DNA from: Thermodesulfobacteriota bacterium
GTDB lineage: Bacteria; Desulfobacterota; Desulfobacteria; Desulfobacterales; B30-G6
NCBI GenBank assembly: GCA_039714495.1
Contig: JBDLJD010000002.1
Span: 268-64,267 of the forward strand
DNA length: 64,000 nt
Reading direction: 5' to 3'
Shown piece by piece: positions 10,171 to 55,063 of this stretch. The notes under the pieces are model-generated. The model did not search any database. It was not told where the DNA came from and saw nothing but the letters and a program-made list of their open reading frames with translations. The position numbers and the translations under genes are program-made. Numbering within the stretch: position 1 is the first letter of the stretch; each line of letters starts with the position of its first letter.

Positions 10171-10400
10171 ATATGTATCATTTATTTAAATATGATACAT
10201 GCGCATAGCTTTAAATATTAAATATATCAATTAGTTATGAATGTGCCAGCGTGGCATGCTTCTTGCTCTGTTACTAAGCTATAATAATGGAGTGACATAT
10301 GCGACCGTACCTAAATATAATTTTTCTTTTTGTTGCTATATGTAAAGTGGATTAGGATAAAATCCCAATTCGATCGGTAAATTAATATGAAGAGGGAGAT

Positions 10401-10628: not shown

Positions 10629-10694
10629 TTAAATTGTGAGAATGGCTACAACCAAATTCAAAAGGCAGAGCCACTACGAGACTCTGCCTTAAAC

Positions 10695-10910: not shown

Positions 10911-10919
10911 TTGATTTTA

Positions 10920-10995
10920 TGGTGGAGCTGAGGGGGATCGAACCCCTGACCTCATGACTGCCAGTCATGCGCTCTCCCAGCTGAGCTACAGCCCC
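10920..10995 (-). tRNA. tRNA-Ala (anticodon GGC)
   Basis: The reverse complement GGGGCTGTAGCTCAGCTGGGAGAGCGCATGACTGGCAGTCATGAGGTCAGGGGTTCGATCCCCCTCAGCTCCACCA folds as a cloverleaf. It has the G3:U70 Ala identity pair, anticodon loop CTGGCAG, and an encoded CCA. Confidence 0.93.
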
Positions 10996-11078
10996 ATTGA
11001 GGAGGCGAACGTAGCAAAATCAGGCTGGGGTGTCAATCATTATTTCACATCTGGAGCATTGAAAATAATCATATTCTA

Positions 11079-11104
11079 ACCATTCTATAAATTTGAAACG
11101 TTCA
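11079..11104 (+). promoter_or_regulatory. Dispersed motif A copy 2 (ACCATTCTATAAATTTGAAACGTTCA)
   Basis: See 5772-5797. It is followed by a small hairpin, TTCAC-N6-GTGAA. It lies 177 nt upstream of ppiD. Confidence 0.65.
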
Positions 11105-11280
11105 CTTTTGGTGTGAATAATCGAGGGGGTATTTCTAATGAAGAGTTGACAAAAACAAATCTAAAAAATAGATTCAAACACTTTAAAATCTTGATCTTGT
11201 ACAAGTCAGAGGTTTCACCATAAAACTCGGGGCAAGATTGAGACAAAATATGGGCTAAAAATTAATTGAGGTGAAATCCA

Positions 11281-13167
11281 ATGCTGAGTTTGATGCGTAA
11301 ACATGCAACGAGTTGGTTGATCAAGATTCTGCTGGGCGCCATTGTCGTTGTTTTTGTATTCTGGGGTGTGGGGAGCTTCCGCAGTCGTAAGGCCAGTTCC
11401 GTTGCAAGCGTGAACGGTGTTATTATTACCGCCGAGGAATACAACCAGACCTATAATGCGCTGCTGGAGCAGATGCGGCAGCGCTTTGGCAACAACCTGA
11501 ATGAAGAGATGGTCAAAATGTTGCGCATTGACCAACAGGCCATGGATCAGTTGGTAGATCAGGCCCTTATACTTCAAGAGGCCGCCAAACTGAAACTGAG
11601 GGTCACCGATGAGGAAGTCGTGGATTCCATTACGGGCATTGCCGCCTTTCAGAGCAATGGCCAATTCGACCGCCGCCTGTACCAACGGATACTGGAATTC
11701 AACCGCCTGACGCCCGAGGGGTTTGAAAAAATGCAGAGAGACACGCTGCTCACAGGCAAACTGCGCTCATATGTGGGGAGCAATGTCCAGGTCTCAGTTG
11801 ACGAAGCCAACACATACTATCAATGGCAAAACACAGTTGTGGGTATCGAATATGCGGTATTCAAGCCGGATACCTACAAGGAGATCAGCTTGTCGGAAGA
11901 GGAGATTCAGGCCTACTTTGATGAGAACAAGACAAGCTATAAAACCGATCCTGTGGTCAATGTCCAATATATCAGGTTCAGCTCGGAAGCGTACAAAGAC
12001 AAGGCTGTGGTGACAGAAGAAGAAATACAGGAATATTATACCAGCAACACCCCGGAATTCGACCAGCCCAAGACCGTGGAGGCACGTCACATCCTCATTA
12101 AGGTGGCTCAGGACGCTGCCGAGGAGGAGGTGGCGCTGGCCCGGGCCAGAGCCGTGGAAGTCCTGGACAAGTACAAGGCGGGAACCCCCTTTGCCGAGTT
12201 GGCCCAACAGTACTCGGAGGGCCCATCCAAGAACAACGGCGGGCATCTGGGAACCTTTAAAAAGGAAGACATGGTGGCGCCTTTTGCGGAAAAGGCTTTT
12301 TCCATGGCCGCAGGAGACGTCAGCGAACCGGTAAAGACGCGGTTTGGGTGGCACCTGATTCTGGTGGAAAAAGTAAATGAGGCCTCCACTAAGTCACTGG
12401 AAGAGGCTAGTAGCGATATTAAAAACAAACTGGTCGATGTAAAAGCCGACAACTTTGCCTATGATGCGGCAGAGACCTTTTACGATCAGACCCTGGAAGG
12501 GGATGACCTGGCCGAAACTACCATGGGTACGGGCCTTACAGTGATAAAAACAGGTCAGTTCAACCGGCAGGGAATATCATTGCAGGGGGTTGCGGATCGC
12601 ACCAAATTTATTGCCGCAGCATTTGGCCTGGAGTTGAACCAAATTAGTGAAATTCAAGATTTATCAGATGGTTATTATCTGATGCAGGTGATCGAAACCC
12701 TGCCGGGAAAAATTCCTGAACTCGAAACGGTGAAAAAAGAGGTCAGCGAGGACCTGAAAAAGGTAAAACAAAAGGAGATGGCGCAAAAGGATGCCGATGC
12801 ACTGCTGGAGGCTTTGAGGAACGATCCTGAAGGGGACATGGCAACCAAAGCCGTTTTTTCGGCAACCGGGGATTTTAAACGCAACGCATCCATACCCGAA
12901 ATAGGATATGAGAACGAAATATCGAGCGCCGCGTTCATGCTCACCAAGGAAAAACCGCTTCCTGAAAAGACCTTCAACGCTACCCAGGGGACCTATGTTA
13001 TCCGTCTTAAAAATAGAAAGTTGCCTGATGCCGAAGGATTTGATAAAGAAAAAGATCAGATCAAAGAAACCCTCCTGGTGCGCAAGCAGTCACAGACATT
13101 CAATGCATGGCTGCAACAGATAAAAGACAACAGTGAGATCACGATCAAGGACGGCGTTGTTGAATAA
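11281..13167 (+). CDS. ppiD: Periplasmic chaperone / peptidyl-prolyl isomerase PpiD
   Basis: 628 aa with an N-terminal membrane anchor (SWLIKILLGAIVVVFVFWG), a SurA-N-like domain and a central parvulin domain (ARHILIK...GGHLGTF...GWHLI). Confidence 0.85.
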   Translation: MLSLMRKHATSWLIKILLGAIVVVFVFWGVGSFRSRKASSVASVNGVIITAEEYNQTYNALLEQMRQRFGNNLNEEMVKMLRIDQQAMDQLVDQALILQEAAKLKLRVTDEEVVDSITGIAAFQSNGQFDRRLYQRILEFNRLTPEGFEKMQRDTLLTGKLRSYVGSNVQVSVDEANTYYQWQNTVVGIEYAVFKPDTYKEISLSEEEIQAYFDENKTSYKTDPVVNVQYIRFSSEAYKDKAVVTEEEIQEYYTSNTPEFDQPKTVEARHILIKVAQDAAEEEVALARARAVEVLDKYKAGTPFAELAQQYSEGPSKNNGGHLGTFKKEDMVAPFAEKAFSMAAGDVSEPVKTRFGWHLILVEKVNEASTKSLEEASSDIKNKLVDVKADNFAYDAAETFYDQTLEGDDLAETTMGTGLTVIKTGQFNRQGISLQGVADRTKFIAAAFGLELNQISEIQDLSDGYYLMQVIETLPGKIPELETVKKEVSEDLKKVKQKEMAQKDADALLEALRNDPEGDMATKAVFSATGDFKRNASIPEIGYENEISSAAFMLTKEKPLPEKTFNATQGTYVIRLKNRKLPDAEGFDKEKDQIKETLLVRKQSQTFNAWLQQIKDNSEITIKDGVVE

Positions 13168-44836: not shown

Positions 44837-45154
44837 TTACACACATCCGGTCGGTTTCGGAAGACCGGCCATCTTACAGGCTCCCTTGCCCGGGCCTGAG
44901 GGGAACAGCTCATAGATGTGTTTCAGTTTGAAACCGGTAACCTTGGAAAGAACGCGAACCATAGGTGCGATACCATTCTTTTCGTAGTACTCTCTCAGAA
45001 CGGTAATAACTTTCTGATGCTCGTCGTTCAATTCTTCAATACCTTCTTCCTTTTTGACCAACTGAACCCATTCTTGGCTCCAGTTTTCATAGGAATCGAT
45101 AAATCCATCTTCATCAACACTGAAAGTTTTTCCCTGAAATTCTACTTCTGGCAT
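44837..45154 (-). CDS. dsrC: DsrC (dissimilatory sulfite reductase-associated protein; TusE/DsrC family with both C-terminal Cys)
   Basis: 105 aa ending ...GKGACKMAGLPKPTGCV, with the penultimate Cys and the Cys 11 residues upstream. Strong RBS AAAGGAGGG. Confidence 0.9.
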   Translation of the reverse strand: MPEVEFQGKTFSVDEDGFIDSYENWSQEWVQLVKKEEGIEELNDEHQKVITVLREYYEKNGIAPMVRVLSKVTGFKLKHIYELFPSGPGKGACKMAGLPKPTGCV

Positions 45155-45427: not shown

Positions 45428-46282
45428 CTAATATTCCTTGGGTGTCTTATTGATCTGGTCCAGGGTGAAAACAGGGCCGTCTTTACACACCAGCTCTTTG
45501 CCGATACCGCAGCGGCCGCACATGCCGAACCCGCACTTCATTCTGTTTTCCAGGGACATGATGATGTGGTCATGGGCATATCCCAGTTTTTCCAGAACCG
45601 GAAGGGTGAATTTGATCATGATCGGCGGACCGCAGACAATGGCATAGGTATCGTCGTCACCCTGGGGCGCCTTCTGCTCGGTGATCGGGGGGGTGAACCC
45701 CACGTTGTATTCCCACCCTTCGGACGGGGCGTCGATGGTCAGGTGCATGTTGATGTCATCCCGTTTTTCCCATGCGACCAGTTCATCCTTGTACAGCAGC
45801 ATACCCGGTGTCCGGGCACCGTACACCACATCGATATCCCCGAACCTGGAACGATTTTCCGGATCGAGCATGTAAACGATGGAGGAGCGCAGGGTGGTAA
45901 AGGCAAATCCGCCGCCGACGATGAGGATGTTCTTGCCCTCGAGAAGGTCCCAGGGATACCAGTTGCCCATGGGGCCCCGGATGCCCATGATATCGCCCTC
46001 TTGCATGTTGTGAAGGTGGGAGGTGACGACACCTGCCTTGAAAACGGTGAATTTGACAAAGCCTTTTTCCACGGGCGAAGAGGCAATGCCGATGGGGATT
46101 TCGCCGATGCCGGGAACAGAGAGTTCGGCGAACTGACCGGCCTCATAAGCAAACTTCTCTTCGTCACCATCGTTCAGGAAGACAAATTTAAATGTTTTAA
46201 GACTTTTATCCTCTGTTGCCACCTCGATGTCATCGATGCGAACCGGATAAGGTACATAGGGGTTTAACACGTGATCCTCCAT
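45428..46282 (-). CDS. FAD/NAD(P)-binding, [2Fe-2S] oxidoreductase subunit (AsrB / PyrK / sulfhydrogenase-gamma-like)
   Basis: 284 aa with a ferredoxin-reductase-type FAD and NAD fold (ILIVGGGFAFT) and a C-terminal CGFGMCGRCGIGKELVCKDGP cluster motif. Confidence 0.8.
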   Translation of the reverse strand: MEDHVLNPYVPYPVRIDDIEVATEDKSLKTFKFVFLNDGDEEKFAYEAGQFAELSVPGIGEIPIGIASSPVEKGFVKFTVFKAGVVTSHLHNMQEGDIMGIRGPMGNWYPWDLLEGKNILIVGGGFAFTTLRSSIVYMLDPENRSRFGDIDVVYGARTPGMLLYKDELVAWEKRDDINMHLTIDAPSEGWEYNVGFTPPITEQKAPQGDDDTYAIVCGPPIMIKFTLPVLEKLGYAHDHIIMSLENRMKCGFGMCGRCGIGKELVCKDGPVFTLDQINKTPKEY

Positions 46283-46286: not shown

Positions 46287-47351
46287 TTATTCATTTACCG
46301 CGCAGGTCGCCTCTGCGGCATTGTAACTGTTCATCAGGTTGCAGACCCTGCGAATGTCGATGTTGACCGGGCATTGACTGACGCAGCGGCCGCACCCGAC
46401 ACACATGATGCCTTTATCGTATTTGTCCACAAAATATTTCAATTTATGCATGAAGCGTTGCCGCACCCGCTGGGTCTTGGTGCCTCTGGGATTGTGTCCG
46501 GTGGTGTGCACAGTGAACAAGGGGAACATGCAGCTGTCCCAGTTTTTCATTCTTTTGCCCGCTTTGCCGTGCACTTCGTCCTGAAGGTCGAAGCACCAGC
46601 AGGTGGGGCAGGTGTAGGTGCATGTACCGCAGTTGAGACAGGCAAAGGCAACATCTTCCCAAAAGGAGGCGCCGTGCAGCTCCATCAGGTCCTGGTTTTT
46701 CAGGTTGTCCATTTCAACGGTGGAGGTGATCTTGGCCTCGGCTGCCTCTTTTCTGGTTTCAATCTCTGCAGCGTCCCCGGCGGGGGTGTCCCAGCCGGCA
46801 GCTTCGGTTAAAGCCTTTCCTTTGTCAGTCAGCACCTTGGCCAGATAGTGGTCGCCGCCCTCTATCAGGAGTACGTCCAGCCCCTCTTCGTTGTAGGGTC
46901 CGCATCCCGTGGAGGTGCAAAAACAGGTGTTTCTGGGTTCGTCGCAGGCCAGTCCGACAAATGTCGTGGCTTCCAGGGCCTTAACCCAGTACGGGTCCTG
47001 GTATTCAGACGTATCGAAGTTCAGGTTCACCAAGGTGACTGCTTTGGCATCACAAGGCCGTATCCCCAGAACCGCCCGGGGAGAGCTGTCCTTCTCAACG
47101 GGTTTCATGATGTGGTGGTCTTCATCATTCTCATCCAGGCTGTATTCGATGATGGTGTCGGATTGCGGGAAAAGAATCGCTTTGGGGGAAAGCCGGGAGT
47201 TGGCAAAACCGAGCTCCGGTTGCTCCCCGGCATCCAGGGATGTAAAGCTGTAGTAATCCTTCTCCTTTGCCGGCCCGAACAGATGGTAGGCTTTCTGGAG
47301 TGCCTCCAGCCCTTTGTCCCACTGCTTTTTGTCGATTTTTACTAACGTCAT
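46287..47351 (-). CDS. 4Fe-4S dicluster subunit (AsrA / sulfhydrogenase-beta-like)
   Basis: 354 aa containing CLNCGTCTYTCPTCWCFD and CVGCGRCVSQCP. It lies 4 nt upstream of the AsrB-like gene. Confidence 0.75.
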   Translation of the reverse strand: MTLVKIDKKQWDKGLEALQKAYHLFGPAKEKDYYSFTSLDAGEQPELGFANSRLSPKAILFPQSDTIIEYSLDENDEDHHIMKPVEKDSSPRAVLGIRPCDAKAVTLVNLNFDTSEYQDPYWVKALEATTFVGLACDEPRNTCFCTSTGCGPYNEEGLDVLLIEGGDHYLAKVLTDKGKALTEAAGWDTPAGDAAEIETRKEAAEAKITSTVEMDNLKNQDLMELHGASFWEDVAFACLNCGTCTYTCPTCWCFDLQDEVHGKAGKRMKNWDSCMFPLFTVHTTGHNPRGTKTQRVRQRFMHKLKYFVDKYDKGIMCVGCGRCVSQCPVNIDIRRVCNLMNSYNAAEATCAVNE

Positions 47352-47370: not shown

Positions 47371-48318
47371 TTAACGTATAAAATCATCCGGATCGTCTGG
47401 ACGGTATGTATCCAGAGGCGGCCTTACATCCAGGGTCAGGCCGGCTTCCCAACCGAACTGTTCAAAACTGTCTTTCTCAAGTTTTTGGGTGAACACCCGC
47501 ATGTTGATGCCCACCGGGCAGGCGCGCTCGCATGCGCCGCAGTCCGTGCACCGTCCTGCACAGTGAAAGGCCCTTAGAAAATGGAAGGTTCTGACATCGG
47601 TCGGGTCCTGCCCTTTGCCGACCCACTGGGGTTTGGATTCGTCCACAAAGCAGGTAGGGCAGTAGCAGAGGGGACAGGCATTCTTGCAGGCATAGCAGCG
47701 GATGCACGGAGAAAGGAGTTCCTCGAAGAAGTTCCACTTATCTTCAGGGTTCAGGGCCTCGATTTTCCGGACATCCTCGTAGCGGTCCACGTCCTTTTGT
47801 TCCTCCACCGGGTCGGTCACCATTTCGTCGAAAATGACCGGGTTGCGGTGGATGCAAACCGCACAGTTTTTCTGCAGGACATCGGCTTTGTCAAGTTCGT
47901 TCGCTTTACCGTCGACAGTTACCGTAATTTTCTGACCGCTTTCGGCCACATCCTGAATCTCACCGTCGAACATGGCATTGATCTTGTGCTTGTCGATCAT
48001 GCCCTGGCAGGGAACACCGATAATGTAAAGCTGTTCCCGGCTGATTTTGTTCTCGATGATATGGGTGACGATGTTGCGCGTATCGCACCCCTTGGCGATG
48101 ATGCCGATCTTTTCCGCGCGGTTGGTCAGGTAATTGGCCAGGTTGATACCGCAGTTGCTGTCCCAGACGAGCTGCGCTGTATCTTCCGCATTGTTGATGA
48201 AGCAGGGTTCGTTCATCATGGGCATGCTCCCCTTGCGGAACCCGATGACCATGTCCACCTGGCACTCCTTGAGCAGCCGGGCGGATATCTCTTTAATCTT
48301 ATCGTTGTATTCTGACAT
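47371..48318 (-). CDS. FrhB/FdhB-like iron-sulfur flavoprotein-type subunit
   Basis: 315 aa with an N-terminal FrhB-like region and C-terminal CIRCYACKNACPLCYCPTC plus CTDCGACERACP. Confidence 0.65.
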   Translation of the reverse strand: MSEYNDKIKEISARLLKECQVDMVIGFRKGSMPMMNEPCFINNAEDTAQLVWDSNCGINLANYLTNRAEKIGIIAKGCDTRNIVTHIIENKISREQLYIIGVPCQGMIDKHKINAMFDGEIQDVAESGQKITVTVDGKANELDKADVLQKNCAVCIHRNPVIFDEMVTDPVEEQKDVDRYEDVRKIEALNPEDKWNFFEELLSPCIRCYACKNACPLCYCPTCFVDESKPQWVGKGQDPTDVRTFHFLRAFHCAGRCTDCGACERACPVGINMRVFTQKLEKDSFEQFGWEAGLTLDVRPPLDTYRPDDPDDFIR

Positions 48319-48319: not shown

Positions 48320-48751
48320 TTATGCTACCTTGGCCTCGTGCTTGGCAAAATGCGTGTTCGGTCCCAGGGCTCTAACCTTTTCCGTAACTTCCTTGACCAC
48401 CTCCACAAATTTAGTGGATTCGGCCGAAGAGATCCACGAGTAGTGAATCCGGTCCGGTTCGATGCCCATGTGTTCCATGAGGTTTTTAAACAGCGAGAAT
48501 TTCCGACGAGCGTAGTAATTACCTTCCAGGTAATGGCATTCGCCGGGATGTCACCCGGACACCCAGACGCCGTCGGCGCCTTCCCTGAGAGCGGCCATGG
48601 CGAACTTGGGGCTCATGCGGCCGCTGCAGGGGATCCGGATGACCCGGATGTTGGAGGGGTACTCCATCCGGCTGACGCCTGCCAGGTCGGCAGCGCCGTA
48701 GCTGCACCAGTTACAAAGGAAACTGACGATTTTCGGTTCCCATTCTGACAT
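48320..48751 (-). CDS. mvhD: MvhD-type (methyl-viologen-reducing hydrogenase delta / FlpD) protein with in-frame UGA (selenocysteine)
   Basis: [25 protein letters not shown]...[12 protein letters not shown](48551-48553)[18 protein letters not shown]...HEAKVA. The reading frame and family similarity continue for 76 codons after the TGA, which replaces the first Cys of the GGCHxGDCHY motif. The start at 48751 follows AAGGAG; 48775 is an alternative. Confidence 0.8.
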
Positions 48752-48913
48752 TGTTGTAATCTCCTTCTCTGACATTTGATCTGTTTCCGCTGCCGTCCAG
48801 CCGATTGGATCAAACCATTTTATTTACAAAGTCCGAGGATTCTATGATTAGAGTGTTGGTAGCCGATGCGTTTTACTTGAAACCTTGGCCCCGCGACCCC
48901 TTGAATCCTGTAA

Positions 48914-51900
48914 TTAGACCGCTTCGTTCATGGCAAAAATCTGTGCAAAAATCTGGTCGTTGTCAAATCCCTTCAGCTTGATGGCGCCGGAGCGGCAGGA
49001 AGCCACGCAAAGGCCGCAGCCTTTGCACAGGACCGGGTTGATCTTAGCCTTGCCTGTGAATGGACCTTCCTCGATAAATGCCGGTGCCGAATAGGGGCAG
49101 ATGGAAACACACACCGCACATGAGCTGCAGTTCATGGGCACGGTTTCGGCAATGGTTCCGCTGGTGTGGATCGTTTCACGCGCCAGCAGCGTGACCGCTC
49201 TGGATGCCGCCGCTCTTCCCTGGACCACGGACTCGTCTATGGGTTTGGGGTAGTGGGCCAGGCCGCACAGGAACACACCATCGGTGGCAAATTCCGAAGG
49301 ACCGAGCTTGGCGTGCTTTTCCACGAAAAAGCCGTCATCATTCAGTGACACCTTGAAAAAGTTGGCCAGAGCCTCGTCCTTGTTGGGCACCACGGCCGAG
49401 GCCAGGGTAACAAGGTCGGTTGCGATTTCCAACGGCCGCCCCAGCACATGGTCGGTCACCGTAATTTTAATCTCACCGTTGTCCAGGTCAAGCACCGGTT
49501 TATTGTCGACGGCGTAGCGGACAAAAATGATGCCTTTTTCACGGGCTTCCCGGTAGATATACTCGCGTTCACCGTAGGTGCGGATGTCCCGGTATAGAAT
49601 GTAAACGCTCATTTCCGGGTTGGTTTTTTTCAGTTCCAGGGCGTTGTCAATGGAATGCGTGCAGCAGACCTTGGAGCAGTATGGCCGTTCCGGTTCCCTT
49701 GATCCCACGCACTGGATAAAGACTGCCGACTTTAGCTCTTTCAGGGCAGGATCCTTGTCCATGAATTTGCGATCAAGTTCCAGGCTGGTCAGGATACGCG
49801 GGTCGTCTCCATAGTGATACTCCCGGGGCTTGAGAGCTGAGGCACCGGTGGCCACGACAGCCACGCCGTGTTCCAGTTCCGTTTCCTTACCGTCAGCAGC
49901 CAGCGTAGCCTTGAAGCTGCCCACAAAGCCTTCAACGTTTTTAAGCTCAGTACTCAGGTGCACATGGATATTTTCATTCTGGTCGACATCGGCGATGAGA
50001 TGGGACAGTTTTTCCTGAACATCGTCGCCCGAAATCGTTCTGAACAGGTTGAGGGCCTGACCACCCAGTGCATCGCTTTTTTCCACGATGTGGGTTTCAT
50101 ACCCATGTTGGGCCAGGGTCGAGGCCGCACTCATGCCGGCGATGCCGCCGCCGATGATCATGGCGGTTTGGTTGACTTGCAGTTCCGCTTCCTCCAAGGG
50201 CTGCATGAGCGCCACCTTGGAGACGGCCATACGTACCAGGTCTTTGGCTTTTTCCGTGGCCATGTCTGGGTTGTTTTTGTGGACCCAGGAGTCTTGGTTA
50301 CGGATGTTGCACATCTCGAAAAGGTATTTGTTGAGCCCTGCATTGATCAAGGTTTCCTGAAACAAAGGTTCGTGGGTTTTCGGTGTACAAGCCGCCACCA
50401 CCACCCGGTTCAGGTTTTTCTGCTTGATGATCTGGGTCATGGTCTCCTGGGTGTCCTGGGCACAGGAGTATAGATTGTCCGAAAAATATTCCACATAGGG
50501 CAGGGTTGCTGCATAATCACGGACGGCCGGTACATCCACCACACCGGCGATGTTGATGCCGCAGCGGCAGACGAACACGCCGATACGGGGGCGTTCGCCG
50601 AAAACGTTGGTTTCCGGAACAACTTCGGGGGTCAGGGTTCGGGTGTTGCGGGCCGCGCTCAGCACTGCGCCTGCGCTGCCGGCTGCTGCACTGGCGTCGA
50701 TGACCGATTGGGGGATATCCTTGGGGCCCTGAAAGGCGCCGCAAACATAGATACCCTTTTGGGATGTTTCCACCGGCTCGAAGGTCTCTGTTTTACAGAA
50801 ATTGCCCTCGGTCAGCTCAATGTCCAGCTTTTTGGCCAGGGCTACGGTTTCAGGGTTGGTCTGCAGGCCGATGGAGAGGACGACCTGGTCGAATGTTTCG
50901 TTTTGCAGTTCGCCCGACTCCGTGACATAGCGTACCGACAGGTCATCGGATCCGGCTACCGGGTCAATGGTGTGCACCCGGCTGCGCACGAAGCGCACGC
51001 CCTTTTCCTGGGCATTGTTGTAGAAGCGTTCAAAATCTTTGCCATGGGTGCGCATGTCCATGTAAAATATGGTACACTCCAGATCATCGCCGGCATGTTC
51101 CTTGGCGATGACGGATTCCTTAATGGCATACATGCAGCAGACCGAAGAACAATAGGAATTGTCGCACCGGTTGAGATCCCGGGAGCCCACGCATTGAAAC
51201 CAGGCGATCTTTTTGGGTTCCTTGTGATCGGATGGGCGCACCAGATGACCCCCTGTAGGGCCTGATGCCGACAGGATCCGCTCCATCTCCATGGAGGTGA
51301 TCACGTTCGGGTGGTTGGCATAGTTGTAGGAATCGAATTTGGACGGGTCAAAGGGCTCAAATCCGGGGGCCAGAATGATGGATCCCACTTCGAGCTCCAC
51401 AATCTCGTCTTCCATGGTGTGGTCAATGGCGTCAACCCCGCAGAATTCCGTACAGACCTTGCAGCCGCCTGTTTTGAAATGCACACAGACATCCCGGTCA
51501 ATGGCCGGGGTGTTGGGCACGGCCTGGGCATAGGGCACATAAACCGGCTTTCTGCCATTGAGGCCCATGTCGTATTCGCTGGGAATCGGCTGGACATCCT
51601 TGTGGCGGGTGATTATTTCGTTGATCTTTTCAAGGGTGATGTGACCGGTGGGGCAGACCGAGGCGCAGGCGCCGCAGGCCATGCAGACATCGCTCTGGAG
51701 GTGATAAGGCGTGTCCACCTTCATCTCCACCCCCCTGCCGGTGAGGCTGATGGCGCTGTTGCCCATGCGTTCGCACATGCGTACGCACAGTCCACAAAGA
51801 ATGCAGTCGTCGCCCTCGGTTTTGAAGCGCGGTTTTTCTATGCCGTACTCTTTAGCAAGCTTTTTCAGCATGGGGACGTCGGGGCACCTCGCCAGGAGCA

Positions 51901-52171
51901 GTTCCACGATCAGCTTGCGCCCCTGGTGAACCGCTTCGGAATCGGTGGTGATCTCCATACCCTCCCAGATGGGGTAGTTGCAGGCGGTTACGAACCGGCT
52001 CCTGCGGCCGTCAAAAAGCTCTACCGTGCAGAGGCGGCACATACCGGCCGGCTCCAGTGCCTTGTGGTGGCACATGGTCGGGATATCGACACCGTATTTT
52101 TCAGCGACCTGAAGGATGTATTGCCCTTCTTCGCCTTGAACTGTTTTGCCGTTGAGCTTAAACGTGATCAT
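48914..52171 (-). CDS. 1085-aa fusion of three parts: a NuoG/FdhA-type N-terminus ([2Fe-2S] + 2x[4Fe-4S]), the C-terminal part of an HdrA FAD domain, and a complete second HdrA-like unit
   Basis: Residues 1-190 are MITFKLNGK...CHHKALEPAGMCRLC...CILCGLCVRMC...CMACGACASVCP. Then come the HdrA-like GSIILAPGF...WFQCVGSRD...YCSSVCCMYAIKE...CGAFQGPKDI. The second unit is IGVFVCRCGINIAG...IIGGGIAGMSAA...FIQCVGSRE...CSKVCCTHS...CSSCAVCVSICP...CKGCGLCVASC. Confidence 0.85.
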   Translation of the reverse strand: MITFKLNGKTVQGEEGQYILQVAEKYGVDIPTMCHHKALEPAGMCRLCTVELFDGRRSRFVTACNYPIWEGMEITTDSEAVHQGRKLIVELLLARCPDVPMLKKLAKEYGIEKPRFKTEGDDCILCGLCVRMCERMGNSAISLTGRGVEMKVDTPYHLQSDVCMACGACASVCPTGHITLEKINEIITRHKDVQPIPSEYDMGLNGRKPVYVPYAQAVPNTPAIDRDVCVHFKTGGCKVCTEFCGVDAIDHTMEDEIVELEVGSIILAPGFEPFDPSKFDSYNYANHPNVITSMEMERILSASGPTGGHLVRPSDHKEPKKIAWFQCVGSRDLNRCDNSYCSSVCCMYAIKESVIAKEHAGDDLECTIFYMDMRTHGKDFERFYNNAQEKGVRFVRSRVHTIDPVAGSDDLSVRYVTESGELQNETFDQVVLSIGLQTNPETVALAKKLDIELTEGNFCKTETFEPVETSQKGIYVCGAFQGPKDIPQSVIDASAAAGSAGAVLSAARNTRTLTPEVVPETNVFGERPRIGVFVCRCGINIAGVVDVPAVRDYAATLPYVEYFSDNLYSCAQDTQETMTQIIKQKNLNRVVVAACTPKTHEPLFQETLINAGLNKYLFEMCNIRNQDSWVHKNNPDMATEKAKDLVRMAVSKVALMQPLEEAELQVNQTAMIIGGGIAGMSAASTLAQHGYETHIVEKSDALGGQALNLFRTISGDDVQEKLSHLIADVDQNENIHVHLSTELKNVEGFVGSFKATLAADGKETELEHGVAVVATGASALKPREYHYGDDPRILTSLELDRKFMDKDPALKELKSAVFIQCVGSREPERPYCSKVCCTHSIDNALELKKTNPEMSVYILYRDIRTYGEREYIYREAREKGIIFVRYAVDNKPVLDLDNGEIKITVTDHVLGRPLEIATDLVTLASAVVPNKDEALANFFKVSLNDDGFFVEKHAKLGPSEFATDGVFLCGLAHYPKPIDESVVQGRAAASRAVTLLARETIHTSGTIAETVPMNCSSCAVCVSICPYSAPAFIEEGPFTGKAKINPVLCKGCGLCVASCRSGAIKLKGFDNDQIFAQIFAMNEAV

Positions 52172-52192: not shown

Positions 52193-54124
52193 TTAGCAAA
52201 TAGCAATTGCATTGAATTTACACGCGTCGTAGCAGATGCTGCACTTGATGCAGAGTTCCTGGTCCAGGGTGTGCGGCTTTTTCTTGTCGCCGCTGATGGC
52301 GTCCTGCGGGCATTTGCGGGCACAGACGTGACAGCCGTTACAGGCTTCGGCATCGATTTCATAATGGAAAAGGGCCTTGCAGACGCCTGCCGGACATTTT
52401 TTGTCCCTGATGTGCGCTTCATACTCGTCCCGAAAATAAAGAATCGTTGTCAGGACCGGATTCGGAGCTGAGGTTCCCAGACCGCACAGGGAGAACTTCT
52501 GAATCATACTGCCCAACTCTTCCAGAAGTTCGATGTCCCCTTCCTTACCGTTGCCGGCGCAGATATCGGTCAGGATATCCAGAACCTGCTTTATGCCTTC
52601 ACGGCAGGGGTTGCACTGCCCGCAGGACTCCTCCTTGAGGAAATCCATGAAGTAGCGGGCCACATCCACCATGCAAGTATCCTGGTCCATGGCAATCATG
52701 CCACCGGAGCCCATGATGGAACCTACTTCGGCCAGTTTCTGATAGTCCACCGGCAGGTCCATGAAGCGTTCGGGGATGCACCCGCCCGACGGGCCGCCGG
52801 TCTGAATCGCCTTGAATCGTTTCTTTTTGGGAATACCTCCGCCGATGGTGAATGCGATTTCCTTCAGGGAAATGCCCATGGGTACTTCCACCAAGCCGGT
52901 GTTCTTGATCTTGCCCACCAGGCTGAAGACCTTGGTGCCCTTGCTGTGGTCCGTGCCCATGCCGGCATACCACTCGGCGCCTTGGAGCACGATGGCGGGA
53001 ACGTTGGCATAGGTTTCCACATTGTTGAGGTTCGTGGGGCCTTCGCGGAACCCTTTTTCCACAGTGTGCACGTACTTGGCTCTGGGGCGGCCGACATTGC
53101 CTTCCAGGGAGGCCATCAAAGCGGTGGATTCACCGCAGACAAAAGCTCCGGCCCCGGTGGAAATCTTGATGTTGAAACTGTAGTCCGTACCGGCGATGTT
53201 GTCTCCCAAAAGGCCGCAGGCTTCGGCCTGCTTTATGGCGGTTACCAGCCGTTTGACCGCCAGGGGATACTCGTTGCGCACATAAATGTAACCCTGGCGG
53301 GAACCGATGGCATAGCCGGCGATCAGCATGCCCTCCAGCACGCTGTGCGGGTCTCCTTCCAGGATGCTCCTGTCCATGTAGGCGCCCGGGTCCCCTTCAT
53401 CCGCGTTGCAGATGATGTACCGGTCGCCGTCGTGTTTGGCACAGGTAGCCCACTTGATGCCGGTGGGGAACCCGCCGCCGCCCCGGCCCCTCAAGCCCGA
53501 TGCCTTGATGGTTTCCAGGATTTTTCCCGGTTCCGAGTGCTCGAGCATCTGTAGCAACGCCCGGTAGCCCTTTTTGGCAATGTATTCTTCGATGCAGTCC
53601 GGGTCGATATACCCGCAGTTGCGCAAGGCGATTTTTACCTGACCTTTATAAAAAGGTATGTCTTCCAAGAATGGGATGGCTTCAAAGGGTTCGACCTTGC
53701 CCATAGGATTGTCAATCTCCGCTTCCAGAATGGACCGGGGATCGCGCATTTGGCCGAGGATCCATTTTTTCTTGGAGAGGCCGTTTTGGTAGTCGTCAAC
53801 CGCGTCCAGAATTTTGTCCGGAGTAATGTTTTTATACATCACCCTGGGGCGGCCGTTGGTCAGGATTTCGACCAGGGGCTCCATTTCGCAGTATCCGATG
53901 CATCCCGTCTGGCTGACCTGGATCGCCCTGTCCGCTGCGAAAGCTTCAGCAGCGGTTTTGAATGCCGCTTCGGCGCCGGCGGCAATACCACAGGAGGCCA
54001 TGCCGATGTTCACTTTTATGGAATCCGGGTAGTAAAGGCTGGTGCTGTATTCCCGGGTAATCTTTTCTAAGTCTTTTACAGACTGGATTTTCATGATTTT
54101 AGCCTCTTCAACGTCTTTATTCAT
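52193..54124 (-). CDS. NuoF/HydB/HndC-like NAD(P)H-binding FMN iron-sulfur flavoprotein
   Basis: 643 aa. It has an N-terminal thioredoxin-like [2Fe-2S] region, the NuoF core (GRGGGGFPTGIKW, NADEGDPGA, ESCGQCNPCREG) and a C-terminal 2x[4Fe-4S]. Confidence 0.9.
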   Translation of the reverse strand: MNKDVEEAKIMKIQSVKDLEKITREYSTSLYYPDSIKVNIGMASCGIAAGAEAAFKTAAEAFAADRAIQVSQTGCIGYCEMEPLVEILTNGRPRVMYKNITPDKILDAVDDYQNGLSKKKWILGQMRDPRSILEAEIDNPMGKVEPFEAIPFLEDIPFYKGQVKIALRNCGYIDPDCIEEYIAKKGYRALLQMLEHSEPGKILETIKASGLRGRGGGGFPTGIKWATCAKHDGDRYIICNADEGDPGAYMDRSILEGDPHSVLEGMLIAGYAIGSRQGYIYVRNEYPLAVKRLVTAIKQAEACGLLGDNIAGTDYSFNIKISTGAGAFVCGESTALMASLEGNVGRPRAKYVHTVEKGFREGPTNLNNVETYANVPAIVLQGAEWYAGMGTDHSKGTKVFSLVGKIKNTGLVEVPMGISLKEIAFTIGGGIPKKKRFKAIQTGGPSGGCIPERFMDLPVDYQKLAEVGSIMGSGGMIAMDQDTCMVDVARYFMDFLKEESCGQCNPCREGIKQVLDILTDICAGNGKEGDIELLEELGSMIQKFSLCGLGTSAPNPVLTTILYFRDEYEAHIRDKKCPAGVCKALFHYEIDAEACNGCHVCARKCPQDAISGDKKKPHTLDQELCIKCSICYDACKFNAIAIC

Positions 54125-54620
54125 ATTGGTCTAAAATGCGGTCTATTTCGTCGGATGCGATGCGGCCGTGCATGTCTTCGTTGATTTTCACGACCGGCCC
54201 CAGGCTGCAGCAGCCGATACAGCGCACGGATTCCAGGGTGAAGCGCTGGTCTTCCGTGGTCTGGCCATCGTTGATCTCCAGGTTTTCCTGGATGCGTTCC
54301 CGTACCCTCTCGCCGCCGCGCACGTGGCAGGCGGTGCCGAGGCAGATGGAAATGATGTTGCGCCCCCTGGGTTCCAGGCTGAAGGTGCTGTAGAAGGTGG
54401 CCACACCGTATATTTTGCTGTAGGGAATGCCGATTTTGGCGGAAAGATAGTTCAGCGCCGGTTGGGGTAGATAATTGTACTTGCGCTGTATGGCCTGAAG
54501 GATCATGATCAGATTTTCTTTGTTGTTGCCGAATTCATCCTCGATAATGGTGTCGAGTTCCATAAAATCGACTTCTGTTTCAATATGTTGATCGCTTTCC
54601 AGCGGAATAGCTTGGTTCAT
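54117..54620 (-). CDS. NuoE/HndA-like thioredoxin-fold [2Fe-2S] subunit
   Basis: 167 aa containing ICLGTACHVRGG and VRCIGCCSLGPVV. It overlaps the NuoF-like start by 8 nt. Confidence 0.9.
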   Translation of the reverse strand: MNQAIPLESDQHIETEVDFMELDTIIEDEFGNNKENLIMILQAIQRKYNYLPQPALNYLSAKIGIPYSKIYGVATFYSTFSLEPRGRNIISICLGTACHVRGGERVRERIQENLEINDGQTTEDQRFTLESVRCIGCCSLGPVVKINEDMHGRIASDEIDRILDQYE

Positions 54621-54676: not shown

Positions 54677-55063
54677 TCAGCAATTTGCGGGCAATTGCAC
54701 CACAGGGCAGTTCTCCACGCAGGCGCCGCATCCGGTGCAGAGATCCATGTTGATGCTTCGGGCGCGCTTTTTAACTTTTACTTTAAAATTGCCTGATTCG
54801 CCTTCGACAGATTCAAGATCTGCATATGTGATAAGCTCGATGTTCAGATGCCGGCCGACCTCGACCAGTACAGGGGAAATAATTCACATCGCGCAGTCAT
54901 TGGTGGGAAAGGTCTTGTCCAGTTGCGACATGACGCCACCTATGGAGGGGGATTTCTCAAGAAGGTAAACATAGTACCCGGAATTTGCCAGGTCGAGCGC
55001 GGACTGCATTCCGGCGATACCACCACCGACAACCAGTACCGAACCGATTACATCCTTTGCCAT
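54677..55063 (-). CDS. 128-aa stand-alone HdrA N-terminal fragment with in-frame UGA (selenocysteine)
   Basis: ATG at 55063 follows AGGAGA. The product is [62 protein letters not shown](54884-54886)[68 protein letters not shown]. Stop TGA is at 54677-54679. I translated the 68 post-UGA codons by hand and found no other stop. Confidence 0.75.

What the first reader, a model, noticed from the sequence alone, without database searches (positions are those of the whole stretch)
48914..52171. 1085-aa three-part fusion protein (NuoG-type FeS N-terminus + partial HdrA + complete HdrA)
Seen: one uninterrupted ORF combines three parts. (i) A [2Fe-2S] plus two [4Fe-4S] motif block like the N-terminus of NuoG, FdhA or [FeFe]-hydrogenases. 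(ii) An HdrA flavin-domain segment lacking its own dinucleotide-binding start. (iii) A second HdrA-like unit with its N-terminal CxCGxNI domain, GGGIAGM FAD site and C-terminal 2x[4Fe-4S]. The second unit lacks the TNDCxMC motif of the first. This would wire the NuoEF-like NAD(P)H dehydrogenase directly to two HdrA-type flavins in a single polypeptide.
Basis: partly seen in the sequence, partly recalled or inferred. Interest (0 to 1): 0.6.

Follow-up and report, generated by a model that had tools for sequence, protein, structure and literature searches.

The report
BfuA fused to HdrA-dimer flavoprotein
The 1085-residue protein is real and widespread: it joins the iron-sulfur entry domain of an NADH/ferredoxin bifurcating module (Bfu) to a BamE-type "fused HdrA dimer", and its catalytic first flavin domain is completed by a separate 128-residue selenoprotein, so two kinds of electron-bifurcating machinery are hard-wired together in a compact cassette that has not been characterised.

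Summary

What it is:
- Residues 1-180 are a type-2 BfuA/BamI-like block: one [2Fe-2S], two [4Fe-4S], no His-ligated cluster.
- Residues 196-1085 are colinear with BamE-type "fused HdrA dimers", shown by cryo-EM in a 2026 preprint. The same genome encodes an unsplit BamE-like paralogue (45% identity).
- The missing N-terminal FAD motif, the TNDCxxC/U pair and the first Cys motif of the inserted ferredoxin domain lie in a 128-aa Sec-containing ORF upstream of nuoE/nuoF. In ten loci from other phyla that piece is fused in frame to NuoE.
- So a whole Bfu module sits inside an HdrA-dimer gene.

Which unit matters: the "partial" unit keeps the bifurcating-flavin lysine (K351, 38/38 sequences). The "complete" unit does not (D842, variable position).

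Spread: about 29% of sampled genomes of the order carry the fusion, and it also occurs in Planctomycetota, Acidobacteriota, Spirochaetes, Bacteroidota and archaeal MAGs. It is not an artefact.

Partners: the module next to MvhD is exchangeable. Here it is an NAD(P)H-binding AsrAB/HydBG-like set followed by dsrC; elsewhere it is an MvhAG hydrogenase.

Verdict: a new variant of a known kind. Substrates and electron path are inferred only.

The parts
51632..52171 (-). Residues 1-180 of the fusion: BfuA/BamI-like FeS domain. A1 [2Fe-2S] uses C34, C45, C48, C64. Two [4Fe-4S] clusters (A2/A4) use C123/126/129/133 and C163/166/169/173. There is no His-ligated A3 motif.
   Evidence: Pfam Fer2_4 and Fer4_7. 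NCBIfam HoxU, NuoG and FeFe-A6 N-termini. 9mqx_A WorA E 1.5e-41. All these Cys are conserved in the 24 fused sequences. Residues 82-115 contain no HxxxCxxC motif (sequence).
51587..51631 (-). Residues 181-195: linker between the BfuA-like domain and the HdrA part.
   Evidence: It is not homologous to either BfuA or BamE-like proteins. AF2 confidence is low over 125-194.
50612..51586 (-). Residues 196-520: second half of the inserted ferredoxin domain (C229, C237, C240, C244) plus TrxR1 part 2. It carries the [4Fe-4S] E4-type site (C327, C341, C345, C346), the flavin-N5 lysine K351 and the C-terminal FAD motif GIYVCGAFQGPKD.
   Evidence: Aligns to HdrA 5odc 259-458 and is colinear with the own-genome BamE-like protein. 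K351 is conserved in 38/38 sequences.
50207..50596 (-). Residues 526-655: HdrA N-terminal-type domain (CRCGINI) with an E3-type [4Fe-4S] site (C535, C537, C570, C595).
   Evidence: Aligns to HdrA 5odc 2-130. The Cys are invariant. pLDDT is about 80-93.
49157..50179 (-). Residues 665-1005: TrxR2 with its own GGGIAGM FAD motif and an E7-type [4Fe-4S] site (C821, C832, C836, C837). It has no TNDCxxC, no inserted ferredoxin domain, and D842 at the lysine position.
   Evidence: pLDDT is about 85-97. Foldseek matches sHdrA 6tjr with TMt 0.85.
48917..49156 (-). Residues 1006-1085: C-terminal 2x[4Fe-4S] ferredoxin domain (E1/E2 type; C1015..C1025 and C1049..C1059).
   Evidence: Aligns to HdrA 5odc 568-649. 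Pfam Fer4_6. The Cys are conserved.
54677..55063 (-). 128-aa ORF with an in-frame UGA (Sec60). It holds TrxR1 part 1 (GGGIAGM, TNDCAMU) and the first CxxCxxCxxxCP of the inserted ferredoxin domain. This is the piece that the fusion's first HdrA unit lacks.
   Evidence: Translation. It is 63% identical to residues 24-138 of the own-genome BamE-like protein and 71% identical to HdrL-like 10-128. It is conserved upstream of nuoE in 26 loci and is one ORF with NuoE in 10 distant loci. selB is present in the genome.
54117..54620 (-). NuoE/BfuC-like [2Fe-2S] subunit (167 aa).
   Evidence: Pfam 2Fe-2S_thioredx E 4e-49. NCBIfam NuoE and HoxE.
52193..54124 (-). NuoF/BfuB-like subunit (643 aa). It has an N-terminal thioredoxin-like 2Fe-2S domain, the FMN/NADH core, an NADH_4Fe-4S domain and a C-terminal 2x[4Fe-4S].
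   Evidence: Pfam. The best solved relatives are all Bfu/HydB-type: 7t2r_B (E 3e-215), 9bov_B, 8oh5_B, 7q4v_B, 9n5u_B and 9mqx_B.
48320..48775 (-). MvhD-type [2Fe-2S] adaptor of 151 aa with an in-frame UGA (Sec75, GU-HPGECHY).
   Evidence: Translation. 5odc_D E 8.9e-50. A hairpin lies downstream of the UGA, z -2.1. It is conserved directly after the fusion in all loci with enough flank.
47371..48318 (-). 315-aa FeS protein. Its C-terminal half resembles the FdhB ferredoxin domain of Fdh-Hdr complexes.
   Evidence: 7bkb_E E 5.4e-24 over 193-305. Pfam Fer4 families.
46287..47351 (-). 354-aa AsrA / sulfhydrogenase-beta (HydB)-like FeS protein.
   Evidence: Pfam Fer4_22. NCBIfam HydB, ShyB and AsrA. 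9nez_B E 1e-37.
45428..46282 (-). 284-aa AsrB / sulfhydrogenase-gamma (HydG)-like FAD + NAD(P)H + [2Fe-2S] protein.
   Evidence: Pfam FAD_binding_6, NAD_binding_1 and DHODB_Fe-S_bind. NCBIfam PRK08345, ShyC, HydG and AsrB.
44837..45154 (-). DsrC (105 aa, C-terminal ...CKMAGLPKPTGCV), directly downstream. It is a candidate partner only.
   Evidence: Translation. Pfam DsrC is recorded at the same position in L001 and L002. It is present downstream in 11 Desulfobacterales loci with enough flank.

Best explanation
P0001 is the large subunit of a tandem electron-bifurcation complex. Its gene arose when a Bfu module (BfuC/NuoE-like, BfuB/NuoF-like, BfuA/NuoG-N-terminus-like) came to lie inside the gene of a BamE-type fused HdrA dimer, at the inserted ferredoxin domain of the first thioredoxin-reductase-like unit (TrxR1).

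Shown here:
- Residues 1-180 are a type-2 BfuA domain with A1, A2 and A4 clusters.
- Residues 196-1085 are colinear with unsplit BamE-like and HdrL-like proteins.
- The 128-aa Sec-protein supplies TrxR1's FAD beta-alpha-beta, the Cys57/Sec60 pair and ferredoxin motif 1.
- In other phyla that piece is fused in frame to NuoE.

Inferred assembly: the fragment and the fusion together build TrxR1 and a two-chain 2x[4Fe-4S] inserted ferredoxin domain. TrxR1 (K351) holds the bifurcating FAD. TrxR2 (D842) holds a non-bifurcating, mainly structural FAD, as in BamE.

Inferred wiring, about 50% likely:
1. A mid-potential donor module docks on MvhD. In this genome it is the NAD(P)H-binding AsrB/HydG-like, AsrA/HydB-like and FdhB-C-terminus-like proteins. 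In other phyla it is an MvhAG [NiFe]-hydrogenase.
2. MvhD feeds the TrxR1 FAD.
3. The low-potential branch leaves through the split inserted ferredoxin domain straight into the covalently attached BfuA clusters, and on to the BfuBC core, which exchanges electrons with NAD(H) and ferredoxin.
4. The high-potential branch leaves through the E4-type cluster (C327/341/345/346). Its acceptor is not encoded as an HdrBC or HdrD subunit. In Desulfobacterales the adjacent DsrC is a candidate.

The complex may run in either direction.
For: Domain identities.

Colinearity with unsplit paralogues of the same genome:
- The fragment is 63% identical to BamE-like residues 24-138.
- P0001 residues about 196-1080 are 45% identical to BamE-like 140-1027.
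- HdrL-like proteins have a GltD-like insert of about 470 aa at the same point, between ferredoxin motifs 1 and 2.

The BamE architecture and its wiring (fused HdrA dimer, B-FAD Lys280, NB-FAD in TrxR2, Cys59-Cys62 pair, E1-E7 clusters, MvhD-like BamF, HydBC-type BamGH, BamI I1-I3) come from bioRxiv 10.64898/2026.04.10.717634.

Conservation: K351 is invariant in 38/38 sequences, the TrxR2 equivalent varies, and all Cys ligands are conserved.

Synteny:
- The cassette fragment-NuoE-NuoF-fusion-MvhD is conserved in 26 loci from Desulfobacterales and from at least 8 other lineages.
- Fragment and NuoE form a single ORF in 10 of 10 distant loci.
- Exchangeable MvhD-side partners: MvhG/MvhA/HycI in L085, L075, L078, L061 and L062, against P4-P6 here.
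- P0004's C-terminus resembles FdhB, the subunit that contacts MvhD in Fdh-Hdr.
- MvhD here is of ordinary methanogen size and similarity.

Structure: the AF2 model is confident except for the FeS N-domain, the linker and the half ferredoxin domain, as expected for parts that need a partner chain and clusters.
Against: - No biochemical data exist for any member, and no complex prediction could be run, so trans-completion of TrxR1 is inferred from colinearity and fusion patterns only.
- In the only solved relative (BCRII), the BamI clusters feed the C-terminal ferredoxin domain (E1/E2) and then MvhD-like BamF, not the inserted ferredoxin domain. The 15-20-residue linker here does not exclude that geometry.
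- No HdrBC, HdrD or BamD-type subunit is encoded in the operon, so the high-potential branch has no identified acceptor. The FAD may not bifurcate at all.
- The hairpin downstream of the fragment's UGA folds no better than shuffled sequence (z +0.9).
- One locus (L045) shows neither fragment nor NuoE upstream of NuoF.
- DsrC adjacency is confined to Desulfobacterales and could be coincidental.
Confidence: 0.7

Rival explanations
1. BCRII-like wiring. The Bfu module is the input: NADH plus reduced ferredoxin are confurcated. Its BfuA-like clusters pass electrons to the C-terminal ferredoxin domain (E1/E2), then MvhD, then the TrxR1 FAD. The AsrAB/HydBG-like module (NAD(P)+) and/or DsrC are outputs of the HdrA-type bifurcation. 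The fusion point next to the inserted ferredoxin domain is only a topological accident.
For: This is the path seen in the only solved homologous system: BamI I3 to E1/E2 to BamF to B-FAD. All corresponding clusters are conserved here. The linker 176-195 is flexible and of low confidence.
Against: - In relatives with MvhAG hydrogenase, the MvhD path is already taken by the hydrogenase, as in methanogens.
- MvhD here is short and methanogen-like. It lacks the extra 100 or more residues that let BamF bridge BamGHI.
- Both junctions of the Bfu module are tethered to the two halves of the inserted ferredoxin domain.
- HdrL places another NAD(P)H module at the same site.
Confidence: 0.2
2. No HdrA-type bifurcation takes place. 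The HdrA-dimer part is only an FeS/flavin relay, or a one-/two-electron converter, between a third-substrate module and the Bfu core. The enzyme is then simply another Bfu family member. Here it would be an NAD(P)H:NAD+/ferredoxin transhydrogenase like NfnABC/StnABC. In other phyla it would be an H2:NAD+/ferredoxin hydrogenase.
For: - No HdrBC- or HdrD-like high-potential output subunit is in the operon.
- In Planctomycetota and Bacteroidota loci the cassette plus MvhAG appears self-contained.
- Bfu enzymes already accomplish these reactions without HdrA (PMC9304861).
Against: K351, the Cys/Sec pair and the E4-type cluster are strictly conserved. These are the features tied to bifurcation in HdrA and BamE. 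Keeping an extra module of about 900 residues only as a wire seems costly.
Confidence: 0.25
3. The first HdrA unit of the fusion is a degenerate, FAD-less remnant. The 128-aa ORF is an unrelated leftover or pseudogene. Only TrxR2 is a working flavin site.
For: P0001 itself has no GxGxxG before residue 195. The hairpin after the fragment's UGA is not significant.
Against: - The fragment is conserved at 77-94% protein identity across the UGA in Desulfobacterales.
- It keeps all motifs, and it is fused in frame to NuoE in ten distant loci.
- K351, the C-terminal FAD motif and the E4 Cys of unit 1 are invariant, whereas the TrxR2 position is relaxed.
- selB is present.
Confidence: 0.04
4. The long ORF is an assembly or gene-calling artefact that joins separate nuoG-like and hdrA genes.
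For: None found.
Against: - More than 120 full-length homologues of 1082-1123 aa come from independent assemblies.
- Frames spanning the junction occur in about 58 of 201 genomes of the order, in a complete 2.97-Mb contig and in other phyla.
- Composition is even across the junctions.
Confidence: 0.01

Closest known systems
BamE + BamI (with BamF, BamG, BamH) of class II benzoyl-CoA reductase, Geobacter metallireducens (cryo-EM, bioRxiv 10.64898/2026.04.10.717634)
   Same: - Fused HdrA dimer with the same order: TrxR1, inserted ferredoxin domain, N-domain, TrxR2, C-terminal ferredoxin domain.
- Seven [4Fe-4S] sites.
- The flavin-N5 lysine occurs only in TrxR1.
- A Cys-x-x-Cys/Sec pair near the start.
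- An MvhD-type selenoprotein adaptor.
- A HydBC/Bfu-type NuoE/NuoF pair.
- A small NuoG-like subunit with one [2Fe-2S] and two [4Fe-4S].
- An unsplit BamE-like paralogue in this same genome is 45% identical.
   Different: - Here the BamI-like domain is covalently fused to the BamE-like protein.
- The first ~125 residues of the BamE-like protein are a separate gene, fused to NuoE in other phyla.
- The gene order is fragment-G-H-(I::E)-F instead of E-F-G-H-I.
- No BamB/BamC tungsten enzyme and no BamD (HdrD-like) subunit is present.
- MvhD is of normal length.
- The partner genes are AsrAB/HydBG-like proteins and dsrC.
HdrA of methanogens (HdrABC-MvhAGD; PDB 5ODC, 8RVU, 7BKB)
   Same: The fold and all domain types match (Foldseek TMt 0.75-0.77, 35-36% identity; phmmer E 3e-157). 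The MvhD partner is shared. In some relatives the MvhAG hydrogenase is shared too.
   Different: - HdrA is a homodimer of 650-aa chains. Here the two protomers are fused and have diverged.
- One lacks the inserted ferredoxin domain and the Cys pair; the other lacks the N- and C-terminal domains.
- There is no HdrBC.
- NCBIfam HdrA and HdrA2 scores (609 and 801 bits) are below their cut-offs (1400 and 1100).
BfuABC family (HydABC, NiFe-HydABCSL, NfnABC/StnABC, WorABCSL); Schut et al. 2022, PMC9304861
   Same: The NuoF-like subunit has the full BfuB domain set and the NuoE-like subunit is BfuC-like. The N-terminus of the fusion is most like the type-2 BfuA WorA: A1, A2 and A4 present, A3 absent.
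   Different: The 'third-substrate' part attached to BfuA is itself a second bifurcating flavoprotein. An HdrA-fused BfuA was not found in the parts of that survey's main text I searched by keyword; only Bam-Bfu with a separate HdrA-type subunit appeared. Its supplementary tables were not checked.
HdrL of Desulfobacterium autotrophicum (Strittmatter et al. 2009, PMC2702500)
   Same: It has the same fused-HdrA-dimer backbone and the same Sec-containing N-terminus (71% identical to the fragment). An NAD(P)H-linked module is inserted at the same point of the inserted ferredoxin domain, and it is followed by MvhD.
   Different: The HdrL insert is a single GltD-like domain fused in frame on both sides, giving one ~1480-aa chain. 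Here the insert is three Bfu genes. HdrL loci of this genome carry an HdrD-like gene; this operon does not.
FlxABCD-HdrABC of Desulfovibrio vulgaris (Ramos et al. 2015; cited in PMC10553843)
   Same: It has an AsrB-like NAD(P)H flavoprotein, AsrA-like FeS proteins and an MvhD-type subunit next to an HdrA. A link to DsrC is proposed (own knowledge for the subunit descriptions).
   Different: Flx-Hdr has an ordinary HdrA with HdrBC and no NuoEF/Bfu module.

Membership tests
BamE-type fused HdrA dimer | Colinear order: TrxR1 (with inserted ferredoxin domain), HdrA N-domain, TrxR2, C-terminal ferredoxin domain, all in one gene product | tested here: inconclusive
   The order is met for residues 196-1085 (45% identity to the own-genome BamE-like protein). 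The first ~125 residues lie on a separate polypeptide.
BamE-type fused HdrA dimer | Seven [4Fe-4S] sites (E1-E7) | tested here: met
   Cys sets for E1/E2, E3, E4 and E7 are present and invariant. E5/E6 need motif 1 from the fragment.
BamE-type fused HdrA dimer | Lysine at the flavin N5 in TrxR1 only | tested here: met
   K351 is conserved in 38/38 sequences. The TrxR2 position is D842 here and varies among D/K/E/Q/L/R.
BamE-type fused HdrA dimer | Association with BamB/BamC (tungsten enzyme) and BamD (HdrD-like) | tested here: not met
   None is in the operon or in 26 related loci. The genome has them at a different locus, contig C68.
HdrA (methanogen type) | Score above the curated NCBIfam cut-off | tested here: not met
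   NF041778 scores 609 bits against a 1400 cut-off. NF040770 (HdrA2) scores 801 against 1100.
HdrA (methanogen type) | Single chain with N-domain, GxGxxG, TNDCxxC, inserted 2x[4Fe-4S] domain, flavin lysine and C-terminal ferredoxin domain | tested here: not met
   The features are spread over two fused units and a separate fragment. No single unit has them all.
HdrA (methanogen type) | HdrBC partner (CCG-domain subunit) | tested here: not met
   There is no CCG, HdrB or HdrD hit among the operon proteins.
BfuABC family | BfuB with N-terminal 2Fe-2S Trx-like domain, FMN/NADH core, NADH_4Fe-4S domain and C-terminal 2x[4Fe-4S] | tested here: met
   The Pfam domains of P0002 match (the Trx-like hit is weak, E 5e-4). 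The top solved relatives are all BfuB/HydB.
BfuABC family | BfuC (NuoE-like [2Fe-2S]) | tested here: met
   P0003 hits 2Fe-2S_thioredx with E 4e-49.
BfuABC family | BfuA N-terminal domain with A1 [2Fe-2S] and A2/A4 [4Fe-4S]; type 2 lacks A3/A5 | tested here: met
   Residues 1-180 carry the Cys motifs. No HxxxCxxC motif is present. 9mqx_A E 1.5e-41.
BfuABC family | Bifurcating activity with NAD(H) and ferredoxin | not testable with these tools
   This needs enzyme assays.
FlxABCD-HdrABC | FlxA-D plus HdrA, HdrB and HdrC | tested here: not met
   AsrB-like, AsrA-like, FeS and MvhD proteins are present. HdrBC is absent and a Bfu module is added.

The most novel reading that the evidence does not exclude
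The five-gene core is (HdrA N-fragment, free or fused to NuoE), NuoE, NuoF, BfuA::HdrA-dimer and MvhD. It may be a widespread, self-contained 'double bifurcation hub' in which the low-potential arm of an HdrA-type flavin is hard-wired into a Bfu FMN/FeS bifurcation site. Exchangeable donors would plug in at MvhD: MvhAG hydrogenase, an NAD(P)H module or FrhB/FdhB-like proteins. A thiol/selenol-based high-potential outlet at the Cys/Sec pair would serve DsrC in sulfate reducers. That would make tandem bifurcation a general strategy across more than ten phyla, not a speciality of benzoyl-CoA reductase. It would also give complete-oxidising sulfate reducers a soluble route from NAD(P)H to DsrC, ferredoxin and NADH.
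Probability: 0.3. Interest if true: 0.85.

Novelty: new variant of a known kind. Interest (0 to 1): 0.62.

Why it matters
The 2026 cryo-EM work on class II benzoyl-CoA reductase described the coexistence of a Bfu-type and an HdrA-type bifurcation module in one complex as unprecedented.

This locus shows the same pairing in a much more compact form that is fused at the gene level:
- It occurs in roughly three in ten sampled Desulfobacterales species and in several unrelated phyla.
- It has no tungsten enzyme.
- Its donor modules are interchangeable.

It offers a small, tractable system for asking how two bifurcation sites are coupled. A natural split of the flavin domain and of a ferredoxin domain across two chains marks the interface.

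For sulfate reducers it is a candidate for the poorly understood soluble link between NAD(P)H, ferredoxin and DsrC.

It also corrects database annotation. These proteins are filed as 'FAD-dependent oxidoreductase' or 'heterodisulfide reductase subunit A', and the Sec-containing fragment is usually truncated or missed.

Tried and rejected
- **AF2 with a shallow alignment.** A run with 23 close homologues gave an unusable model (pLDDT 52). A 38-sequence alignment that included distant loci gave pLDDT 79.
- **Model coordinates.** They were not available to scripts, so inter-domain distances could not be measured.
- **Complex prediction.** The fragment, fusion, NuoE/F and MvhD could not be predicted together; the tool takes single chains only.
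- **Literature searches.**
  - Searches for an HdrA-NuoG fusion found only general mentions of nuoEFG-mvhD-hdrA clusters (PMC4046663) and HdrL.
  - The Appel et al. 2021 HdrA review and Pereira et al. 2011 are not held, so an earlier description there cannot be excluded.
- **HdrL identity rejected.** HdrL has a GltD-like insert, not a NuoG-like N-terminus.
- **C163-C173 as ferredoxin motif 1 rejected.** The idea that this motif doubles as motif 1 of the inserted ferredoxin domain was suggested by phmmer and MAFFT alignments. Both 4-Cys motifs align to WorA/BfuA, and the fragment carries its own motif 1.
- **Quick ML tree.**
  - It placed the NuoG-fused sequences at three positions, among BamE- and HdrL-type sequences.
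  - I do not take this as evidence for independent fusions. The architecture labels were crude, many forks were weak, and all fused forms share the same cassette.
- **SECIS-like hairpin after the fragment's UGA.** It folds no better than shuffles.

Full report
**The observation**

The minus strand carries one ATG-to-stop ORF at 48914..52171 encoding 1085 residues. Base composition is even across it.

Domain searches support each of the three parts.
- Pfam finds a [2Fe-2S] Fer2_4 domain at 1-78 and a 4Fe-4S dicluster region at 120-180.
- NCBIfam matches the N-termini of NADH-dependent [FeFe]-hydrogenase A6, HoxU and NuoG, and it matches HdrA/HdrA2 in three stretches.
- Against solved structures, residues 526-758 align to HdrA (5odc_A) 2-235, residues 195-400 to HdrA 259-458, and residues 893-1081 to HdrA 461-649, with an overall E of 3e-157.
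- An internal alignment shows residues 224-519 are homologous to 731-1012.
- A 38-sequence alignment gave an AlphaFold model with pLDDT 79 and pTM 0.72. Its best structural matches are HdrA chains (TM 0.75-0.77 per target, about 650 columns, 35-36% identity). WorA (9mqx_A) matches the N-terminus.

The one correction is that the second unit is not a complete HdrA. It has no inserted ferredoxin domain, no TNDCxxC pair, and Asp842 where HdrA has the flavin-N5 lysine.

**Not an artefact**

- The word-indexed protein search returned more than 120 full-length homologues of 1082-1123 aa at 77-93% identity, from independent assemblies.
- In an even sample of 201 genomes of the same order, about 58 have a match spanning residues 1-300, which crosses the BfuA/HdrA junction, in open frames of about 1083-1114 aa.
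- Full-length matches at 45-49% identity occur in MAGs labelled Spirochaetes, Pirellulales, Phycisphaerae, Planctomycetota, Acidobacteriaceae, Thermoanaerobaculia, Cloacimonadota, Bacteroides, Stahlbacteria and Altiarchaeales, and in an uncultured archaeon.
It is no longer needed.

**The surroundings**

The operon on the minus strand reads, in order:
1. a 128-aa ORF (54677-55063) with an in-frame UGA;
2. a NuoE-like gene;
3. a 643-aa NuoF-like gene;
4. the fusion;
5. an MvhD gene with an in-frame UGA (GU-HPGECHY);
6. a 315-aa FeS protein whose C-terminus resembles FdhB of Fdh-Hdr complexes;
7. an AsrA/HydB-like FeS protein;
8. an AsrB/HydG-like FAD/NAD(P)H protein;
9. then dsrC.

The NuoF-like protein has the extra N-terminal Trx-like 2Fe-2S domain and the C-terminal 2x[4Fe-4S] domain. 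Its nearest solved relatives are all bifurcating HydB/BfuB subunits. The NuoE/NuoF pair is therefore a Bfu core as defined by Schut et al. 2022 (PMC9304861).

The N-terminus of the fusion has one [2Fe-2S] and two [4Fe-4S] motifs but no His-ligated cluster motif. This matches type-2 BfuA subunits such as WorA (PMC12318220).

**The key to the 'partial' unit**

The 128-aa ORF reads [19 protein letters not shown]...[17 protein letters not shown]...FKVKVKK...[15 protein letters not shown]. It contains the FAD beta-alpha-beta, the Cys/Sec pair and the first Cys motif of the inserted ferredoxin domain. These are exactly what residues 196-520 of the fusion lack.

The same genome encodes unsplit relatives.
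- A BamE-like protein of about 1045 aa lies on contig C68, beside an aldehyde-oxidoreductase-family gene and HdrD-like, NuoF-like and small NuoG-like genes.
- Two HdrL-like proteins of about 1480 aa lie on contigs C25 and C80.

The identities are as follows.

| Piece | Unsplit relative | Region matched | Identity |
|---|---|---|---|
| Fragment | BamE-like | 24-138 | 63% |
| Fragment | HdrL-like | 10-128 | 71% |
| P0001 ~196-1080 | BamE-like | ~140-1027 | 45% |
| P0001 237-1085 | HdrL-like | 637-1483 | 51% |

In HdrL a GltD-like insert of about 470 residues lies between ferredoxin motifs 1 and 2. That is the position at which nuoE, nuoF and the BfuA-like domain lie here.

**What is known about that backbone**

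A bioRxiv preprint of April 2026 (10.64898/2026.04.10.717634) gives the cryo-EM structure of class II benzoyl-CoA reductase. It reports the following.
- BamE is 'a fused HdrA dimer' with domain permutation.
- TrxR1 holds the bifurcating FAD (Lys280 at N5). TrxR2 holds a non-bifurcating, probably structural FAD.
- A Cys59-Cys62 pair acts near cluster E3.
- E5/E6 in the inserted ferredoxin domain are the low-potential exit, and E4 is the high-potential exit to BamD.
- HydBC-type BamGH plus BamI (I1-I3) feed E1/E2 and the MvhD-like selenoprotein BamF.

The mapping to this locus is one to one.
- Fragment Cys57/Sec60 corresponds to Cys59/Cys62.
- K351 (CCMYAIK, equal to HdrA Lys409) corresponds to Lys280.
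- The Cys sets for E1-E7 are all present.
- The BfuA-like N-terminus corresponds to BamI.

In an alignment of 38 fused and BamE-like sequences, K351 is invariant. The equivalent TrxR2 position varies among D, K, E, Q, L and R. Every cluster ligand is conserved. The 'partial' unit is therefore the likely catalytic one.

**Evidence that the fragment belongs to the complex**

- The cassette fragment-NuoE-NuoF-fusion-MvhD is conserved in 26 of the 33 related loci examined. In six of the other seven the upstream flank was too short or the contig ended. L045, with ample upstream sequence, shows neither fragment nor NuoE.
- In all ten distant loci with enough flank, the fragment and NuoE are one uninterrupted ORF of 263-285 aa, with Cys instead of Sec.
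- In eleven Desulfobacterales loci the fragment is separate, with TGA at codon 60. In a twelfth (L034) it is also separate, but no TGA shows in the matched stretch. The true stop lies near codon 118-132 in all twelve.
- The Bfu module is thus tethered on both sides to the two halves of the inserted ferredoxin domain.
- The genome has selB above the curated cut-off.
- The hairpin after the fragment's UGA is not statistically notable, whereas the one after the MvhD UGA is.

**Size of the family**

The exhaustive search of 1.84 billion representatives gave 2846 hits below 1e-30. The best 150 sort as follows.

| Type | Count |
|---|---|
| Canonical unsplit BamE order | 76 |
| GltD-like (HdrL-type) insert | 33 |
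| NuoG-like N-terminus | 3 |
| Truncated or variant orders | 38 |

The fusion is a minority branch of a very large family. A quick tree did not recover the fused forms as one clade. I regard that result as inconclusive.

**Partners and likely wiring**

- In Planctomycetota, Bacteroidota and other loci, the gene after MvhD (directly, or after one small response-regulator gene in L061 and L062) encodes an MvhG-like small subunit. Where the flank reaches further (L085, L075 tested; L078 by ORF size only), an MvhA-like [NiFe] large subunit and its maturation protease follow (5odc_F E 8e-122).
- In Desulfobacterales and one Spirochaetales locus, the same position is taken by the three NAD(P)H-module genes.
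- An archaeal locus has an FrhB/FdhB-like protein there.
- MvhD here is of ordinary size and is very similar to methanogen MvhD. P0004's C-terminus resembles the FdhB domain of the Fdh-Hdr complex 7BKB; that this domain is the one contacting MvhD there is from my own knowledge.

I therefore favour, at about 50%, the following path:
1. the donor module passes electrons to MvhD;
2. MvhD passes them to the TrxR1 FAD;
3. the low-potential branch runs through the split inserted ferredoxin domain to the attached BfuA clusters and the BfuBC core (NAD(H), ferredoxin);
4. the high-potential branch runs through the E4-type cluster to an acceptor that is not identified.

No HdrBC, HdrD or BamD subunit is encoded. 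dsrC follows the operon in 11 Desulfobacterales loci, so DsrC is a candidate. It may be served through the Cys/Sec pair. This last step is speculation.

The BCRII-like wiring (BfuA to E1/E2 to MvhD) and a non-bifurcating relay role remain live rivals.

**Novelty**

All the building blocks are known. The fused HdrA dimer and the coupling of Bfu and HdrA modules were described in 2026 for one tungsten enzyme.

I did not find the following described in the literature I could search:
- the covalent BfuA::HdrA-dimer fusion;
- the split of TrxR1 and of a ferredoxin domain across two chains;
- the compact cassette without a tungsten enzyme;
- its exchangeable MvhD-side partners;
- its breadth across phyla.

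Two relevant reviews are not held. I re-derived it here from the unsplit paralogues and the NuoE fusions. I classify the finding as a new variant of a known kind.

Noticed in passing
window 48320-48775 (-): The MvhD-type gene has an in-frame UGA (Sec75 in GU-HPGECHY). ORF callers split it into 74-aa and 52-aa pieces, both here and in related loci, where it is annotated as two FlpD fragments. A hairpin after the UGA folds better than shuffles (z -2.1).
   Followed up: partly
window 54677-55063 (-): 128-aa HdrA N-fragment with Sec60 in TNDCAMU. Most gene calls stop at 59 aa. In Spirochaetes, Planctomycetota, Acidobacteriota, Bacteroidota and archaeal loci the same piece is fused in frame to NuoE and has Cys instead of Sec.
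   Followed up: yes
window 44837-45154 (-): dsrC lies directly downstream of the operon. The arrangement is conserved in 11 Desulfobacterales loci. It is followed by YjbQ-like and AsnC/NirDL-like genes.
   Followed up: partly
own genome contig C68 (locus L014, 8854-11991 -, and neighbours): A canonical Bam-like cluster sits in the same genome. It has an AOR-family 653-aa gene, an HdrD-like gene, an unsplit Sec-containing BamE-like gene (~1045 aa), a 644-aa NuoF-like gene, a small NuoG-like gene and an ETF-alpha-like gene.
   Followed up: partly
own genome contigs C25 (L016 3275-7729 +) and C80 (L015 ~7410-11850 -): Two HdrL-like selenoproteins of ~1480 aa carry a GltD-like NAD(P)H module inserted between the two Cys motifs of the inserted ferredoxin domain. 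Each is followed by an HdrD-like gene. This is the same insertion point as the Bfu genes in the window.
   Followed up: partly
L034 6001-9231 (Desulfobacteraceae Eth-SRB2 MAG): The orthologous fusion has a TGA at the position of Cys537 (FVCH*GINI against FVCRCGINI). This may be a selenocysteine at or next to a ligand of the N-domain [4Fe-4S] cluster.
   Followed up: no
L078 3100-6000, and similarly L061, L062, L065, L069, L075, L085: In several non-Desulfobacterales loci about 2.8 kb lies between nuoF and the fusion. In L078, judged from the ORF translations alone (no domain search run), it appears to encode CBS/DRTGG-like, histidine-kinase-like ATPase and PHP-like proteins, the kind of regulatory genes often found inside hydABC-type clusters.
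   Followed up: no
L085 9963-12906, L075 10082-13005, L061 10623-11579: MvhG-like and MvhA-like [NiFe]-hydrogenase genes plus a HycI protease lie downstream of the MvhD gene of the cassette (directly in L085 and L075; after a small response-regulator gene in L061). This points to an Mvh-HdrA-dimer-Bfu hydrogenase in Planctomycetota, Bacteroidota and other MAGs.
   Followed up: partly
L053 9478-12429 and L033 10141-13348: In two Desulfobacterales loci a second, unsplit BamE-like gene follows: directly after the fusion in L053, before MvhD, and after the fusion's MvhD in L033, with a second MvhD behind it. This gives tandem HdrA-dimer genes in one operon.
   Followed up: no
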